Part shown: positions 110-5,082 of the stretch, piece by piece
How the letters are laid out: each line of letters opens with the position of its first letter
Position numbering within the stretch: the first letter of the stretch is position 1
DNA from: an uncultured Actinomycetes bacterium
GTDB taxonomy: Bacteria; Actinomycetota; Actinomycetes; S36-B12; CAIYMF01
DNA length: 32,000 nucleotides
Direction of reading: 5' to 3'
Assembly: GCA_963843975.1 (NCBI GenBank)
Contig: CAWJMG010000003.1
Span: forward strand, 1,800,001 to 1,832,000
Made by a program: the position numbers and the translations under genes
Notes under the pieces: generated by a model
Seen by the model: the letters and a program-made list of their open reading frames with translations, nothing else
Databases searched by the model: none
Told to the model about the DNA's origin: nothing

Positions 110-125
110 ATACCCCTAGGGGTAT
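110..125. promoter_or_regulatory. CsoR/CstR-type operator OP1 (ATACCCCTAGGGGTAT), fused to a -10-like TATGTT
   Basis: Perfect 16-bp palindrome. Its right half runs into TATGTT (123-128), which ends 6 nt before the ATG at 135, implying a leaderless or near-leaderless mRNA. The same ATACCCC-NN-GGGGTAT motif recurs at 1289 and 3962. Confidence 0.7.
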
Positions 126-134
126 GTTGGCAGC

Positions 135-1226
135 ATGGCATCCACCACCGGTTCCACGTCGTCGACCCACCGCGTGCGCACGTGGCACCCCGGATGGATG
201 GGAGTCGTGCTCGGCACCGGGGGCGCTGCGGTGGCGTCCCTCGTCGATCCCCTCCCCGGCACCCGAATCGACGAGGTGATCGGCGCGGCTCTCGCAGCGC
301 TCGCGACCGTCGGCCTCCTCCTGCTCGTCCCGTACGCCGTCCGCCTGCGTCGGCACCGTGACGCCGCGTCGGCGGACCTCGGCAATCCCGGCCTGGGCGC
401 GATGTACGGGACGGTGCCGGCGGCACTGCTGATCGTGGGTATCGCCCTGGCACTACTCGGGATCCTGGGGTGGCTGCCGGCGGGAGTCGCGTGGGTGTCC
501 GCGGCGCTGGTGGCCTCGGGCGTCGTGCTCGCGCTCGTCGTCGGCGTCGGGTTCTTCTCCCGCGTCGTAGCGCACGAGCAGCTCCCGGTTCCCGCGATCT
601 CCGGCGCCTGGTTCATCCCGATCGTGGTGCTCGTCCTCGTGCCGAGCGGCGTCGCCCGGTCCATCGCCCTGCAGCCGACCTGGTCGTCCACGACTGCGCT
701 CGCGCTCGCCACCGCCGCCTGGGGCGCCGGCCTGGTCCTGTTCCTCCTGCTGGCACCCGTGATCGCGTGGCGCCTCATCACCGCACCCATACCCCCGCCG
801 CACATGGCTGCGTCGTGGTGGATCTGGCTGGCCCCCGCGGGAGCGGGGGGCCTCGGCCTCATCGCGCTCTCACGGCTCGCCGCCACTGTCCTCGGCCAGC
901 CCGTGGCCGGTGTCGCGCCCACCTTCGGCCTCCTCGGCGCGAGCATGCTCTGGGGATTCGCCGTGTGGTGGGCGGTGTTCGCCGGCGCCGTCGTGCGCCG
1001 GACCGCGCGCGCGCAGGGCGGCCTGCCCTTCCACCTGGGCAGCTGGGGCTTCGCGTTCCCCACCGCGGCGGTGGCCGCGCTCACGATCGAGCTCGGACAT
1101 GCTTGGGGGTCGCCGTTCCTGTCCGTCGTCGGCGCCGTCGGGTGGCTGGCGACGCTGCTCGTGTGGGGGCGGCTTGCCGCCCAGACGGTGGCCGGGGTGC
1201 GGTCCGGCGCGATCTTCACCCGCTGA
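135..1226 (+). CDS. TDT-family (TehA/Mae1/Ssu1/SLAC1-like) anion channel/transporter
   Basis: 363-aa polytopic membrane protein with about 10 hydrophobic segments and an ATG start. The N-terminal WHPGWMGVVLGTGG and overall Gly/Ala/Leu-rich helices are typical of tellurite-resistance/dicarboxylate transporter family proteins. GC3 is high. Confidence 0.7.
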   Translation: MASTTGSTSSTHRVRTWHPGWMGVVLGTGGAAVASLVDPLPGTRIDEVIGAALAALATVGLLLLVPYAVRLRRHRDAASADLGNPGLGAMYGTVPAALLIVGIALALLGILGWLPAGVAWVSAALVASGVVLALVVGVGFFSRVVAHEQLPVPAISGAWFIPIVVLVLVPSGVARSIALQPTWSSTTALALATAAWGAGLVLFLLLAPVIAWRLITAPIPPPHMAASWWIWLAPAGAGGLGLIALSRLAATVLGQPVAGVAPTFGLLGASMLWGFAVWWAVFAGAVVRRTARAQGGLPFHLGSWGFAFPTAAVAALTIELGHAWGSPFLSVVGAVGWLATLLVWGRLAAQTVAGVRSGAIFTR

Positions 1227-1288: not shown

Positions 1289-1304
1289 ATACCCCTGGGG
1301 GTAT
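1289..1304. promoter_or_regulatory. CsoR/CstR-type operator OP2 (ATACCCCTGGGGGTAT), fused to a -10-like TATGGT
   Basis: Half-sites ATACCCC and GGGGTAT are separated by TG. The right half overlaps TATGGT (1302-1307). It lies about 50 nt upstream of the sqr start, which has a GAGGAG RBS at 1341-1346. Confidence 0.7.
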
Positions 1305-3009: not shown

Positions 3010-3624
3010 GTGCGCGCCGCAGAATGGGACGCCCGCTACGCCGCCGTGGACCGCGTGTGGTCCACCGGTCCGAACGTGTTCGTCGAGGAGAACTGCGCGG
3101 TTCTACCCCCTGCCCGCGCCCTCGACGTCGCCGGCGGTGAAGGGCGCAACGCGCTGTGGCTCGCCGACCGCGGCTGGGAGGCGACCGTCGCAGACTTCTC
3201 GGCGGTCGCCCTCCAGCGCGCGGCGCACCTGTGGGACCACCGCGTCGATCCGGCTGGACGCCTGCACGTACGCCAGGTCGACGTCGTCGCAGAGCCGTTG
3301 GGCGACAAGGAGTTCGACCTCGTCGTGGTGTGCTACCTGCAGATTCCCGCAGAGAAGAGGCGCCAGACCCATCTCTCGGCAGCCGCCGCCGTCGCGGCGG
3401 GCGACACCCTGCTCGTCGTGGCTCATCACACCGACAACCTGACCGAAGGCGTCGGCGGCCCGCAGGACCCTGCGGTCCTCTTCGCGGAGGGCGACGTCGT
3501 CGCCGACCTCGCAGGTTCAGGGCTGGTCGTGGAGACCGCGGTGAAGGCGCCGCGGAGCGTCGAGGTGGACGGCGCCGAGGCCTGGGCGTACGACGCCGTC
3601 GTGCTCGCCCGTCGTCCGCTCTGA
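3010..3624 (+). CDS. class I SAM-dependent methyltransferase, TehB-like
   Basis: GTG start with a GAGGGA RBS. The motif ALDVAGGEGRNALWLADRGWEATVADFS resembles the SAM-binding motif I of TehB-type methyltransferases (G-x-G-R-N-x-L-x-LA). It is a paralogue of the CDS at 13512-14222. Confidence 0.75.
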   Translation: MRAAEWDARYAAVDRVWSTGPNVFVEENCAVLPPARALDVAGGEGRNALWLADRGWEATVADFSAVALQRAAHLWDHRVDPAGRLHVRQVDVVAEPLGDKEFDLVVVCYLQIPAEKRRQTHLSAAAAVAAGDTLLVVAHHTDNLTEGVGGPQDPAVLFAEGDVVADLAGSGLVVETAVKAPRSVEVDGAEAWAYDAVVLARRPL

Positions 3625-3627
3625 CGA

Positions 3628-3927
3628 TCAGGCGAGGGACAGGAAGAGCTTCTGCAGCTGCTCGGCGACGGCGTCGGAGTCCTGGTCGCCGGCGACGACG
3701 CACTCGCGCAGGCTGGTCGAGATCAGCTGGAACGCCGCTCGGTCCACGGCCTTGCTGGACGCCGCGAGCAGTGTGACGACGTCCGAGCAGGAGCGGCCGT
3801 CCTCGAGCATCGCGATGGCACCGCCGAGCTGGCCCTGGGCGCGCTTGAGCCTGTTGACCACGGACTGCACGGCCTTCTGGTCGGCCACGACGTGCTGGGC
3901 GGCCGGGGTCCCCGGTACTGCGGTCAC
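3628..3927 (-). CDS. CsoR/RcnR-family (DUF156) repressor, CstR-like Cys-x-Cys fingerprint
   Basis: 99 aa starting at GTG 3927, preceded by an AGGAGGA RBS. The segment VVNRLKRAQGQLGGAIAMLEDGRSCSDVVTLLAASSKAVDRAAFQLISTSLRECV is a family signature. The position 4 residues before the second Cys is Ser, not the His of Cu-sensing CsoR. Confidence 0.85.
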   Translation of the reverse strand: MTAVPGTPAAQHVVADQKAVQSVVNRLKRAQGQLGGAIAMLEDGRSCSDVVTLLAASSKAVDRAAFQLISTSLRECVVAGDQDSDAVAEQLQKLFLSLA

Positions 3928-3943
3928 GGCGTCCTCCTGGCGA

Positions 3944-3995
3944 TGGGTGGTAGCGACCACTATACCCCCGGGGGTATAGTGGTCGCTACCACCCA
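3944..3995. promoter_or_regulatory. 52-bp perfect palindrome carrying operator OP3 (ATACCCCCGGGGGTAT) and two outward-facing TATAGT -10 elements
   Basis: TGGGTGGTAGCGACCACTATACCCCC (3944-3969) is the exact reverse complement of 3970-3995. TATAGT occurs at 3975-3980 (+) and mirrored at 3964-3959 (-). The palindrome sits between the divergent repressor gene and the 52-aa Cys-rich ORF. Confidence 0.8.
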
Positions 3996-4018
3996 GACGA
4001 TGCGAGGGAGACCACGAG

Positions 4019-4177
4019 ATGTGCCGACAGGTGAGCTGCCGACGTTGCGGCAAGGCGACGTGGGCCGGCTGCGGCCAGCACGTCGACCAGGTGATGCGCG
4101 GCGTGCCGAAGTCCCAGCGCTGCGCCTGCCCGCCCGTGCAGAAGAAGTCCCTCGTCGACCGCATCTTCGGTCGCTGA
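4019..4177 (+). CDS. 52-aa cysteine-rich small protein (six Cys), not in ORF track
   Basis: ATG 4019 follows a GAGGGA RBS-like sequence. The product is MCRQVSCRRCGKATWAGCGQHVDQVMRGVPKSQRCACPPVQKKSLVDRIFGR. GC3 is high, the stop is TGA 4175-4177, and a strong hairpin follows. Confidence 0.65.
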   Translation: MCRQVSCRRCGKATWAGCGQHVDQVMRGVPKSQRCACPPVQKKSLVDRIFGR

Positions 4178-4188
4178 CGTACTCCGCG

Positions 4189-4226
4189 CGACGAAGCCCC
4201 GGTCCACACGGACCGGGGCTTCGTCG
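4189..4226. terminator. bidirectional stem-loop terminator between convergent genes
   Basis: CGACGAAGCCCCGGTCC-ACAC-GGACCGGGGCTTCGTCG forms a perfect 17-bp stem with a 4-nt loop. It lies between the stop at 4177 (+) and the stop at 4240 (-). Confidence 0.7.
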
Positions 4227-4239
4227 TGGGGAGTACTCG

Positions 4240-4575
4240 TCAGGCTGCGGCCGCCACGGCTGACCGCGCGTCACCGGTGATGCGGGTGCGGACGTCGACG
4301 CCCATGTGCGTGAGCACCTTGGTGACGCTGTCGCAGACGTCTCCGGCCACGACGGTGCCGACCCCGTGGTCGCGCATGAAGCGCACGACGCGGGTGTGGT
4401 GGGGGCCGGCGACGTCCACGCCGTACGAGGTGTCCCAGTCCACGACGTGCTCGGCCCAGTCGACGACCTCGCCGTCGACGACCGCGCAGGTGGCGACGGT
4501 GTGGACCCTCCCGAGGGGCAGGTCCTCGACCATGCCGTCGGCGCTGACAGGGACGCAGTACGTGGTGGTGGTCAT
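4240..4575 (-). CDS. NifB/NifX-family (dinitrogenase FeMo-cofactor-binding fold) small protein
   Basis: 111 aa. The pattern CVPVSADGMV...GRVHTVATCAVVDGEVVDW...GPHHTRVVRFMRDHGVGTVVAGDV...LTHMGVDV matches the layout of Nitro_FeMo-Co domain proteins. The assignment is by pattern, not by search. Confidence 0.5.
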   Translation of the reverse strand: MTTTTYCVPVSADGMVEDLPLGRVHTVATCAVVDGEVVDWAEHVVDWDTSYGVDVAGPHHTRVVRFMRDHGVGTVVAGDVCDSVTKVLTHMGVDVRTRITGDARSAVAAAA

Positions 4576-4599
4576 GACCTCTCCAGCCGTTCGACGCTG

Positions 4600-4622
4600 T
4601 TATTGAGATCCTGTCTCAATAA
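4600..4622. promoter_or_regulatory. AT-rich 9-5-9 inverted repeat TTATTGAGA-TCCTG-TCTCAATAA (candidate Fur-family operator/promoter)
   Basis: Perfect arms. It is a conspicuous AT-rich patch in GC-rich DNA, 25-47 nt upstream of the ATG at 4575 and directly downstream of the Fur-family gene. Confidence 0.5.
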
Positions 4623-4671
4623 CTTCACCCTACTCCCGCGAGCGGGTCGACGGCGGTCGACCGGACCTACG

Positions 4672-5082
4672 TCACACCGGGCGGGAGGAGCCGGCGCACC
4701 GCGCGCACAGGCCGAACACCTCGAGCGTGTGGCTGACGTCGGTGAAGCCGTGGCTCGCCGCGGTCGCGTTGGACCAGCGTTCGACCACCTTGCCGACGAT
4801 CTCGATCGTCAGCCCGCAGTCGCGGCAGACCAGGTGATGGTGGTGGTCCGGCGTGCAGCTGCGGTACACCGCCTCGCCGTCCGCCCGGATGATGACGTCG
4901 ACGTCGGGCTTCTGTGCGAGCGCGCGCAGCGTCCGGTAGACCGTCGCCCGCCCGACCCGGTCCCCCGACGCGCTGATCGCGTCGTGGATCTCCTGGGCGG
5001 ACCGGAAGTCGTCGAACGACGCGAGCGCATCGACGACGAGCTGCCGGGGGCGCGTGCGTCGCTGGCCGATGCTCACGTGCAT
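4672..5082 (-). CDS. Fur-family metalloregulator (Fur/Zur/Nur/PerR class unresolved)
   Basis: 136 aa from ATG 5082. It has a winged-helix part (TVYRTLRALA), an HHHH run followed by CRDCG, and a C-terminal CARC. This gives the two CxxC pairs of the structural Zn site. Confidence 0.85.
   Translation of the reverse strand: MHVSIGQRRTRPRQLVVDALASFDDFRSAQEIHDAISASGDRVGRATVYRTLRALAQKPDVDVIIRADGEAVYRSCTPDHHHHLVCRDCGLTIEIVGKVVERWSNATAASHGFTDVSHTLEVFGLCARCAGSSRPV

What the first reader, a model, noticed from the sequence alone, without database searches (positions are those of the whole stretch)
3944..3995. 52-bp perfect palindrome in the divergent repressor promoter
Positions 3944-3969 are the exact reverse complement of 3970-3995 (26 + 26 bp with no mismatch). 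This is far longer than the 16-bp core shared with the other two operators.

The palindrome contains mirrored TATAGT boxes that could drive the repressor gene leftwards and the Cys-rich micro-ORF rightwards. A perfect palindrome of this length is unusual. It could extrude as a cruciform, bind two repressor tetramers, or form identical 5'-UTR hairpins in both divergent transcripts.

The palindrome also explains why the ORF track shows the same peptide (GGSDHYTPGGIVVATT) on both strands here.
Basis: seen in the sequence. Interest (0 to 1): 0.65.

Follow-up and report, generated by a model that had tools for sequence, protein, structure and literature searches.

The report
Self-correcting palindrome around a CstR operator
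The 52-bp perfect palindrome is real. Its inner 22 bp are an ordinary persulfide-repressor binding site with two back-to-back promoter boxes, while its outer arms change freely between relatives yet stay mirror images, most likely because replication copies one arm onto the other.

Summary
Observation confirmed: 3944-3969 is the exact reverse complement of 3970-3995. It is the second-longest spacer-less palindrome in the 4.19-Mb genome.

- **Anatomy.** The 16-bp core (3962-3977) is a CsoR/CstR-type operator, also present at 110-125 and 1289-1304. The inner 22 bp (3959-3980) add mirrored TATAGT boxes. These boxes face a CstR-like repressor gene (3628-3927, minus strand) and a conserved 52-codon Cys-rich gene (4019-4177).
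- **Orthologs.** In eight orthologous loci the inner 22 bp are nearly invariant. The outer arms (positions 12-26 from the dyad) diverge about as fast as four-fold synonymous sites. Changes are mirrored on both arms at 11 positions.
- **Metagenomes.** Of 66 distinct sites sharing the inner 22 bp, 45% have at least 4 further perfect pairs (0.65% in a shuffled control). The arm sequences are unrelated between sites and have no characteristic length.
- **Not required.** One-sided core sites, and some two-sided ones, lack the extension. One ortholog has a decayed quasi-palindrome.

Best reading (about 0.55): a functional operator plus bidirectional promoter, with outer arms kept symmetrical by quasipalindrome template switching rather than by a sequence-specific function.

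A 5'-UTR hairpin is unlikely, and two tetramers already fit on the core. Cruciform formation is untested.

The parts
3944..3995 (.). 52-bp perfect spacer-less palindrome (26 + 26)
   Evidence: The ssDNA hairpin is -29.9 kcal/mol, z = -10.4.
3962..3977 (.). 16-bp CsoR/CstR-type operator core ATACCCCCGGGGGTAT
   Evidence: three copies in the window against 0.05 expected; 7 exact copies in the genome, 0 for the reversed control. Same architecture as published ATACC-n6-GGTAT and TAC-N9-GTA operators (PMC7533328, PMC3902906).
3959..3980 (.). Inner 22-bp palindrome: the core plus both -10-like boxes. This is the part that is conserved in sequence.
   Evidence: Nearly invariant in 8 orthologs. The same 22-mer occurs in 83 metagenome stretches.
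3975..3980 (+). TATAGT, inferred -10 box of the micro-ORF promoter. Inferred start near A3988, giving a 5'-UTR of about 31 nt.
   Evidence: Sequence and geometry only. Conserved in orthologs. By analogy with operator 1, where TATGTT at 123-128 is followed by the ATG at 135. No transcription-start data.
3959..3964 (-). TATAGT on the minus strand, inferred -10 box of the repressor promoter. Inferred start near 3951, giving a 5'-UTR of about 24 nt.
   Evidence: Sequence and geometry only; conserved in orthologs. In L152 it is TATGAT, still TANNNT.
3944..3958 (.). Left outer arm. Free in sequence but mirrored. Overlaps the inferred repressor start site and the -35 zone of the micro-ORF promoter (TAGCGA 3951-3956, 18-bp spacer).
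   Evidence: 14 of 15 positions vary among orthologs, at about the rate of four-fold sites, and 11 positions show changes mirrored on the other arm.
3981..3995 (.). Right outer arm, mirror image of 3944-3958
3628..3927 (-). CstR-like CsoR-family repressor gene (99 aa). GTG start at 3927, AGGAGG ribosome-binding site at 3933-3938.
   Evidence: Pfam PF02583, E = 2e-19. Best solved relative is S. pneumoniae CstR 7MQ1. Both Cys align and the Cu-ligand His position is Ser.
4019..4177 (+). Conserved 52-codon Cys-rich micro-ORF transcribed away from the palindrome
   Evidence: Conserved reading frame in all orthologous loci. Homologs lie 45-53 bp from the dyad in many metagenome sites.
110..125 (.). 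Operator copy 1. Palindrome of 16 bp only; one-sided -10 TATGTT; leaderless ATG at 135 of a SLAC1/TehA-like gene.
1289..1304 (.). Operator copy 2, not extended; one-sided -10 TATGGT, upstream of the SQR-like oxidoreductase gene

Best explanation
The palindrome has two layers.

**Layer 1 (functional, positions 3959-3980).** This layer is a type-2 CsoR/CstR operator. The G/C tract is bracketed by ATAC/GTAT. It is fused on both sides to TATAGT -10 boxes of two back-to-back promoters. The reduced CstR-like repressor (3628-3927) would bind as two tetramers on the core. That would occlude both -10 boxes, repressing its own gene and the Cys-rich micro-ORF together. Persulfide modification of its two cysteines would release it. 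The two promoters overlap (each one's -35 zone lies over the other's start site), so only one RNA polymerase can occupy the region at a time.

**Layer 2 (outer arms, 3944-3958 and 3981-3995).** These arms carry no sequence-specific information. They are mirror images because the stable hairpin seeded by layer 1 makes the site a quasipalindrome hotspot. During replication the nascent strand folds back and copies one arm from the other (template switching). Each new mutation is then either erased or mirrored, and the palindrome can creep outward until it meets constrained sequence such as the two ribosome-binding sites.

**Status of each step.**
- Shown: sequence symmetry, mirrored substitutions, a near-neutral rate, and recurrence with unrelated arms.
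- Inferred: repressor binding, the -10 boxes and start sites, and the template-switch mechanism itself.
For: **Layer 1.**
- The core occurs 3 times in the window and 7 times in the genome, next to regulon genes.
- The repressor is PF02583 and closest to SpCstR, with both Cys aligned and no His.
- Published operators and two-tetramer binding fall within 16-19 bp (PMC3902906, PMC8643695, PMC7533328).
- TANNNT lies on the gene side at one-sided sites, and operator 1 has leaderless geometry.
- The inner 22 bp are conserved in orthologs.

**Layer 2.**
1. In 8 orthologs (repressor 75-100% identical), 14 of 15 outer positions vary. 11 positions show changes mirrored on both arms, against about 9 unpaired cells.
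2. Outer-arm divergence is about equal to four-fold-site divergence of the two flanking genes, for example 4/15 against 15/81 for G000-G007. That is too fast for classical two-step compensatory evolution under selection.
3. Of 66 distinct metagenome sites with the same inner 22-mer, 45% have at least 4 and 29% at least 6 further perfect pairs. An arm-shuffled null gives 0.65% and 0.1%.
4. Arm sequences are unrelated between sites. Arm-to-arm agreement decays smoothly from 0.85 at +12 to baseline by +20, without a base consensus or a preferred length.
5. The long palindrome is dispensable.
   - L152 (repressor 90% identical) has a quasi-palindrome with 4-5 mismatches.
   - L157 has lost one arm.
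   - 5 of 10 two-sided core sites in six genomes are not extended.
6. Hairpin stability rises from -3.1 kcal/mol (16 bp) to -6.4 (22 bp) to -29.9 (52 bp). This fits extension at 22-bp sites but not at 16-bp one-sided sites.
7. Template switching is documented to perfect, maintain and expand inverted repeats (PMC7202029, PMC5941160, PMC8794818, PMC13100816).
Against: - No direct evidence of template switching at this site. Mirrored changes are also what selection for a DNA or RNA stem would leave.
- Extension is concentrated at sites with identical -10 boxes on both sides, which could mean a promoter-linked function rather than a stability threshold.
- The block TGGTAGC (positions 16-22) is conserved in 6 of 8 orthologs, so part of the outer arm may be under selection as a -35 or start-site element.
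- No transcription-start, footprint or expression data exist.
- The promoter scan with E. coli-type consensus found nothing, so the -10 assignment rests on geometry and conservation only.
Confidence: 0.55

Rival explanations
1. Selected DNA structure. The perfect arms are kept by selection because the palindrome extrudes as a cruciform (or forms hairpins when unwound) under the negative supercoiling that builds up between two divergently transcribing polymerases. The structure would destroy the duplex operator and both -10 boxes. It would act as a supercoil- or transcription-sensitive brake or switch.
For: - Mirror symmetry without sequence conservation is the classical signature of a selected stem.
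- The strongest extensions sit between divergent gene pairs of several kinds.
- The hairpin is very stable, -29.9 kcal/mol per strand.
Against: - The arms evolve at about the synonymous rate, faster than compensatory evolution under selection would allow.
- Extension lengths are roughly geometric from 0 to 17, with no preferred stem length.
- Close relatives tolerate decayed or truncated palindromes (L152, L157).
- Other two-sided core sites have no extension.
- The centre is ten G:C pairs, which, from general knowledge of cruciform kinetics, disfavours nucleation.
Confidence: 0.15
2. Symmetric promoter elements. The outer arms are mirror images because each arm must serve as the discriminator and start site of its own promoter and as the -35 zone of the opposite promoter. 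Selection for two equally strong promoters keeps them identical.
For: - TAGCGA/TAGCCA at -19 to -14 (18-bp spacer) matches TTGACA at 3-4 of 6 positions and lies in the best-conserved outer block, TGGTAGC.
- Metagenome arms show weak enrichment of A at +18/+19 and C at +17, compatible with a start site or a mirrored -35.
- Extension is largely confined to sites with -10 boxes on both sides.
Against: - Arm-to-arm agreement (0.85-0.4) far exceeds what the weak base preferences predict (0.26-0.32).
- Spacer and discriminator positions 12-15 and positions 24-26 vary yet stay mirrored.
- L156 replaces the TGGTAGC block on both arms.
- Two-sided sites with different -10 boxes work without symmetry in the same genomes.
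Confidence: 0.15
3. Extended repressor contact. The repressor, or a higher-order assembly or DNA wrap as reported for E. coli RcnR, contacts about 50 bp and needs symmetrical flanks.
For: - The palindrome length (52 bp) is similar to the extended RcnR footprint recalled from the literature (RcnR work is cited as ref. 19 in PMC3902906).
- Flanking bases raise S. lividans CsoR affinity about 1.5-fold (PMC3902906).
Against: - The other operators of the same regulon, in this genome and five relatives, have no symmetric flanks.
- Arm sequences differ between orthologs whose repressors are 87-91% identical.
- Half-site and consensus-only experiments place both tetramers within the 16-19-bp consensus (PMC3902906).
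Confidence: 0.08
4. RNA hairpin. The whole palindrome is transcribed in one or both directions and acts as a 5'-UTR stem, an RNase III site or a bidirectional terminator/insulator.
For: - This genome uses many long perfect hairpins, probably as terminators.
- A second operator-centred 42-bp palindrome lies between two co-directional genes, where it would be transcribed.
Against: - With the conserved TATAGT boxes as -10 elements, both start sites fall inside the arms, so neither mRNA contains both arms.
- Across metagenome sites the symmetry fades by +20, about where transcription would begin.
- There is no T-run and no Rfam family above threshold.
Confidence: 0.05

Closest known systems
Type-2 CsoR/CstR operators (S. 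lividans CsoR csoR/copZA sites; S. coelicolor ScCsoR ATACC-n6-GGTAT; S. mitis cst operator)
   Same: - G/C tract flanked by a TAC/GTA (ATAC/GTAT) inverted repeat.
- Located over the -10 box or start site, next to the repressor gene and its regulon genes.
- Two tetramers bind per site in the published systems (PMC3902906, PMC7533328, PMC8643695).
   Different: Published sites are 16-19-bp pseudopalindromes. Here the symmetry runs to 52 bp, and in many related sites to 30-56 bp. The outer arms are not shared with the other operators of the same regulon.
Quasipalindrome-associated template-switch mutation and perfect inverted-repeat maintenance (Ripley model; Lovett laboratory reporters; Lavi et al. 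2018; Monttinen and Loytynoja 2022; Rozenfeld et al. 2026)
   Same: Arms are homogenised, changes appear mirrored, and palindromes are perfected and can expand. Symmetry persists while sequence drifts (PMC7202029, PMC5941160, PMC8794818, PMC13100816).
   Different: Here the process appears to be seeded by a transcription-factor operator plus two -10 boxes. It recurs across a whole class of such sites in Actinobacteria-like metagenome contigs. The mechanism is inferred from comparative data, not observed.
Symmetric bidirectional promoters of prokaryotes (Warman et al., bioRxiv 10.1101/2020.01.31.928960; PMC12825309)
   Same: A pseudo-symmetric sequence drives divergent transcription, and one polymerase binding event excludes the other.
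   Different: Here the two -10 boxes are separated by the 10-bp G/C core, and the inferred starts are about 37 bp apart.
E. coli RcnR operator with flanking DNA wrapping (Iwig and Chivers; recalled from memory, cited as ref. 19 in PMC3902906)
   Same: Same protein family. The protein-DNA interaction is reported to extend about 50 bp.
   Different: RcnR uses tandem type-1 sites (TACT-G6-N-AGTA) and non-specific flanks. No symmetric flanks are required or described.

Membership tests
CsoR/CstR-family type-2 operator | [quoted passage not shown] | tested here: met
   ATACCCCCGGGGGTAT at 3962-3977; compared with PMC3902906 and PMC7533328.
CsoR/CstR-family type-2 operator | Lies in the promoter of a PF02583 repressor gene and recurs before regulon genes | tested here: met
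   The repressor gene starts 42 bp from the dyad. Copies lie at 110-125 and 1289-1304, and there are 7 in the genome.
CsoR/CstR-family type-2 operator | Bound by the cognate repressor (two tetramers) and released by the effector | not testable with these tools
   Needs EMSA, ITC or footprinting.
CstR-type (persulfide-sensing) repressor | Two conserved Cys (x-C-x-C), with the Cu(I)-ligand His missing | tested here: met
   Alignment to SpCstR 7MQ1. GRSCSD aligns with DRDCAD and SLREC with NLTEC. The His position is Ser.
CstR-type (persulfide-sensing) repressor | Controls sulfide or sulfane-sulfur detoxification genes | tested here: inconclusive
   Operators precede a pyridine-nucleotide-disulphide oxidoreductase (SQR-like by sequence motif), a SLAC1/TehA-like channel and a TehB-like methyltransferase operon. 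No expression data.
Quasipalindrome maintained by template switching | Arm sequence differs between orthologs, with changes mirrored on both arms | tested here: met
   11 of 15 outer positions show mirrored changes among 8 orthologs.
Quasipalindrome maintained by template switching | Arms evolve at about the neutral rate, not slowed as under two-step compensatory evolution | tested here: met
   Arm divergence is about equal to four-fold-site divergence over 28 pairs. The sample is small and the lineages are related.
Quasipalindrome maintained by template switching | Multi-nucleotide or indel changes copied in one event | tested here: inconclusive
   The L156 block at positions 18-22 differs on both arms. 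It can be read as 4-5 substitutions or as mirrored indels.
Quasipalindrome maintained by template switching | Direct observation of correction events | not testable with these tools
   Needs a reporter or mutation-accumulation experiment.
Warman-type symmetric bidirectional promoter | Overlapping -10 elements on opposite strands, with starts about 18 bp apart | tested here: not met
   The -10-like boxes at 3959-3964 and 3975-3980 are 10 bp apart, and the inferred starts are about 37 bp apart. The 18-bp figure is recalled from memory, not read from the papers here. The site works like a bidirectional promoter but is not of that geometry.
Cruciform-forming regulatory palindrome | Extrusion at physiological superhelicity | not testable with these tools
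   Only the single-strand folding energy is available.

The most novel reading that the evidence does not exclude
The mirror symmetry of the outer arms is selected, not merely copied. CstR-type bidirectional promoters would then carry a sequence-independent structural element, a cruciform or hairpin driven by the negative supercoiling between two diverging polymerases. This element would switch off both promoters, or evict the repressor, once transcription is under way. It would add a supercoil-sensing layer to persulfide control at many actinobacterial divergent promoters.
Probability: 0.15. Interest if true: 0.75.

Novelty: new variant of a known kind. Interest (0 to 1): 0.45.

Why it matters
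**For regulon annotation.** Only the inner 16-22 bp should be used as the operator motif. The outer arms would mislead motif searches and footprint expectations.

**For evolution.** This is a clear bacterial case in which a transcription-factor site seeds a palindrome that keeps its symmetry while its sequence drifts at about the neutral rate. It recurs at nearly half of 66 independent sites of the same operator class. Mirrored ("compensatory") changes are usually taken as proof of a selected structure. This locus shows how that signature can arise from arm-to-arm copying, which is a useful caution.

**If the symmetry is functional.** It would point to a structural, supercoil-linked control layer at divergent promoters.

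Tried and rejected
- **E. coli-type promoter and terminator scan of 3600-4700.** Nothing found. The scan is uninformative for this high-GC organism.
- **G022 and G023 orthologs (71% and 69% identity).** The repressor sits in another context without the palindrome, so they were not used for arm comparison.
- **Orientation calling by codon-phase GC on metagenome flanks.** It misclassified known divergent loci and was not used. ORF inspection of the top sites was used instead.
- **Rfam.** Only sub-threshold generic miRNA-hairpin matches.
- **Search for orthologs of the genome's second operator-centred palindrome (42 bp).** None in five relatives, so there is no replicate covariation test.
- **Rejected: assembly artefact.** Independent assemblies carry equivalent palindromes.
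- **Rejected: outer arms as part of the operator.** The regulon's other operators do not share them.
- **Rejected: identical 5'-UTR hairpins.** The inferred start sites fall inside the arms.

Full report
**1. The observation**

Positions 3944-3969 (TGGGTGGTAGCGACCACTATACCCCC) are the exact reverse complement of 3970-3995. The central 16 bp, ATACCCCCGGGGGTAT (3962-3977), recur at 110-125 and 1289-1304. That is three matches against 0.05 expected.

In the whole 4.19-Mb genome the motif ATACCCC-N2-GGGGTAT occurs seven times exactly, and the reversed control never.

A census of all spacer-less perfect palindromes in the genome shows geometric decay up to arms of 13 and then a tail of ten. This palindrome (arms of 26) is the second longest. 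The genome also has about 213 perfect stems of 14 bp or more with loops of 0-10 nt, presumably terminators. Long perfect stems are therefore a feature of this genome. One centred on an operator between divergent genes is not.

**2. Local anatomy**

*Left of the palindrome.* A 99-codon gene (3628-3927, minus strand) starts with GTG at 3927 and has an AGGAGG ribosome-binding site at 3933-3938. Both are conserved in orthologs.
- It is a PF02583 (CsoR-family) protein, E = 2e-19.
- Its best solved relative is Streptococcus pneumoniae CstR (7MQ1).
- Both sensing cysteines align, and the Cu(I)-ligand histidine position is Ser.
- It is therefore a CstR-like, probably persulfide-sensing repressor.

*Right of the palindrome.* A 52-codon Cys-rich ORF (4019-4177) is conserved with an intact frame in every orthologous locus.

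*Other two core copies.* They precede a SLAC1/TehA-like gene and an SQR-like oxidoreductase operon.

*Promoter geometry.* In every copy the GGGGTAT half runs into a TANNNT hexamer on the gene side.
- At copy 1, TATGTT (123-128) is followed after six bases by the A of the ATG at 135. This is the geometry of a leaderless mRNA.
- At the finding, TATAGT is present on both sides (3975-3980 on the plus strand, 3959-3964 on the minus strand).
- With these as -10 boxes, transcription would start near 3988 and 3951.
- Each promoter's -35 zone (TAGCGA, 18-bp spacer) lies over the other's start site.
- These assignments are inferences from geometry and conservation.

**3. Orthologous loci**

Eight orthologous repressor/micro-ORF loci were assembled from related genomes and metagenome or assembly collections. 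Repressor identity to the window's protein ranges from 75% to 100%.

| Locus | Longest perfect palindrome |
|---|---|
| L155/L047 | 56 bp |
| G007 | 54 bp |
| G000 (this window) | 52 bp |
| G021 | 44 bp |
| G020 | 42 bp (one mismatch, then 8 more pairs) |
| L156 | 36 bp (54 bp allowing one arm mismatch; the central pair is also mismatched) |
| L158 | G021-like, with TATAAT on the micro-ORF side |
| L152 | quasi-palindrome with 4-5 mismatches |

A further contig, L157, encodes the same repressor protein as L156 but has a rearranged left arm and only a 26-bp palindrome. It was left out of the arm table.

The inner 22 bp are almost invariant. In the outer arms (positions 12-26 from the dyad):
- 14 of 15 positions vary.
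- 11 positions show changes that are mirrored on both arms.
- About nine cells are unpaired.

Pairwise arm divergence is about the same as divergence at four-fold degenerate sites of the two flanking genes. For example, G000 against G007 gives 4/15 against 15/81.

The sequence is not conserved. The symmetry is.

**4. The whole class of sites**

A metagenome scan for the inner 22-mer ACTATACCCC-NN-GGGGTATAGT gave 83 stretches, of which 66 are distinct sites with enough flank.
- 45% have at least 4 and 29% at least 6 further perfect pairs (maximum 17). Pairing arms from different sites gives 0.65% and 0.1%.
- The arm sequences are unrelated between sites.
- Arm-to-arm agreement falls smoothly from 0.85 at +12 to baseline (about 0.27) by +20, while base frequencies at these positions are nearly flat.
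- Extension lengths are roughly geometric, with no preferred length.
- The most extended sites lie between divergent gene pairs of several kinds: class-V-aminotransferase-like with PIG-L, SQR with a membrane protein, and micro-ORF with other genes.

Among 38 core sites in this genome and five relatives, extension is found at few sites.
- It is found at the four repressor/micro-ORF sites.
- It is found at one other two-sided site.
- It is found at two sites without clear -10 boxes.
- The 19 one-sided sites are not extended.
- Five two-sided sites whose two -10 boxes differ from each other are not extended.

**5. What this means**

*Repressor contacts.* Sequence-specific contacts cannot explain arms that differ between 87-91% identical repressors and are absent from the regulon's other operators. 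Published work places both CsoR tetramers within the 16-19-bp consensus, with only about 1.5-fold gain from flanks (PMC3902906). CstR binding is likewise fitted with two tetramers on a short operator duplex (PMC8643695).

*Shared promoter elements.* These may explain the better-conserved TGGTAGC block. They do not explain mirrored variation at spacer and discriminator positions, nor agreement far above what base preferences predict.

*RNA hairpin.* This is unlikely because both inferred start sites lie inside the arms. The symmetry across sites also fades about where transcription would begin.

*Remaining readings.* Two readings remain. One is selection for a DNA stem (a cruciform). The other is arm-to-arm copying. 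I favour copying, for five reasons:
- The near-neutral rate of arm evolution.
- The absence of a characteristic length.
- Tolerance of decayed palindromes in close relatives.
- Dispensability at other two-sided sites.
- The rise of hairpin stability from -3.1 kcal/mol (16 bp) to -6.4 (22 bp) to -29.9 (52 bp). This would explain why 22-bp sites extend and 16-bp sites do not.

The proposed process is quasipalindrome template switching. It is known experimentally to make imperfect repeats perfect (PMC7202029). It has also been inferred comparatively to conserve perfect repeats in Proteobacteria (PMC5941160), to create and maintain stems with apparently compensatory changes (PMC8794818), and to expand repeats at yeast promoters (PMC13100816).

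A functional cruciform is not excluded, and I give it about 0.15.

**6. Comparison with known systems and novelty**

The core is a member of the CsoR/CstR type-2 operator class, and the repressor is CstR-like. The promoter works like a bidirectional promoter, but its geometry does not match what I recall of the overlapping -10 type described for E. coli, a figure I did not check in the papers here.

I did not find any description of long, sequence-free symmetric arms as a recurrent feature of this operator class in the CsoR/CstR papers consulted. The likely mechanism, however, is a known one. I rate it a new variant of a known kind, of moderate interest.

Earlier notes of this scan describe similar "self-correcting" palindromes between divergent promoters in unrelated genomes. 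They agree with this reading but are unchecked and are not counted as evidence.

Noticed in passing
outside the window: G000:C3:1174016-1174057 (= L001 1488-1529): A second operator-centred perfect palindrome of 42 bp (CGCTCAGGGACCG-ATACCCCTAGGGGTAT-CGGTCCCTGAGCG) has unrelated outer arms and no TANNNT boxes. It lies between the 3' end of a DUF2202-like gene and the start of a co-directional PIG-L/LmbE-like gene. It would be transcribed there and could act as a terminator or roadblock as well as an operator. No ortholog was found in five relatives.
   Followed up: partly
outside the window: L001 2427-2463 (G000:C3:~1174955-1174991): Two tandem core-like sites (TACCCCTGGGGGTA and ATACCCCGGGGGGTAT, 7 bp apart) lie between a thioredoxin gene and the divergent DUF2202-like gene. 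The -10-like boxes differ on the two sides (TATGTT and TATAGT), and there is no palindromic extension.
   Followed up: partly
window 4179-4236: A 27-nt-arm hairpin (93% complementary, 4-nt loop) lies directly after the micro-ORF stop and before the convergent NifX-like gene end. It is probably a bidirectional terminator without a T-run, and its start is conserved in orthologs.
   Followed up: no
window 110-137: The SLAC1/TehA-like gene appears to be leaderless. Its ATG (135) lies exactly 7 nt after the TATGTT hexamer that is fused to the operator.
   Followed up: partly
whole genome G000 (e.g. C3:1422901-1422958, C3:217540-217589, C3:1516626-1516669): The genome carries about 213 perfect hairpin stems of 14 bp or more, including several spacer-less GC-rich palindromes of 44-58 bp whose short centres (GAATTC, CACGTG, CGATCG) are themselves palindromic. 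They are probably terminators that have also been made perfect.
   Followed up: no
L053/L062/L108/L111 (metagenome contigs): A recurrent divergent pair, a class-V-aminotransferase-like gene (MTADELTQ...YADYTASGRSL) and a PIG-L/LmbE-like gene, shares the same 22-bp operator-promoter with 7-11 bp of extra symmetry. This suggests that mycothiol-type thiol metabolism genes belong to the same regulon in other Actinobacteria.
   Followed up: no
window 4591-4615: A 9-5-9 AT-rich inverted repeat (TTATTGAGA-TCCTG-TCTCAATAA) lies upstream of the NifX-like gene and next to a Fur-family regulator gene (PF01475). It is a likely Fur/Zur-type box.
   Followed up: no
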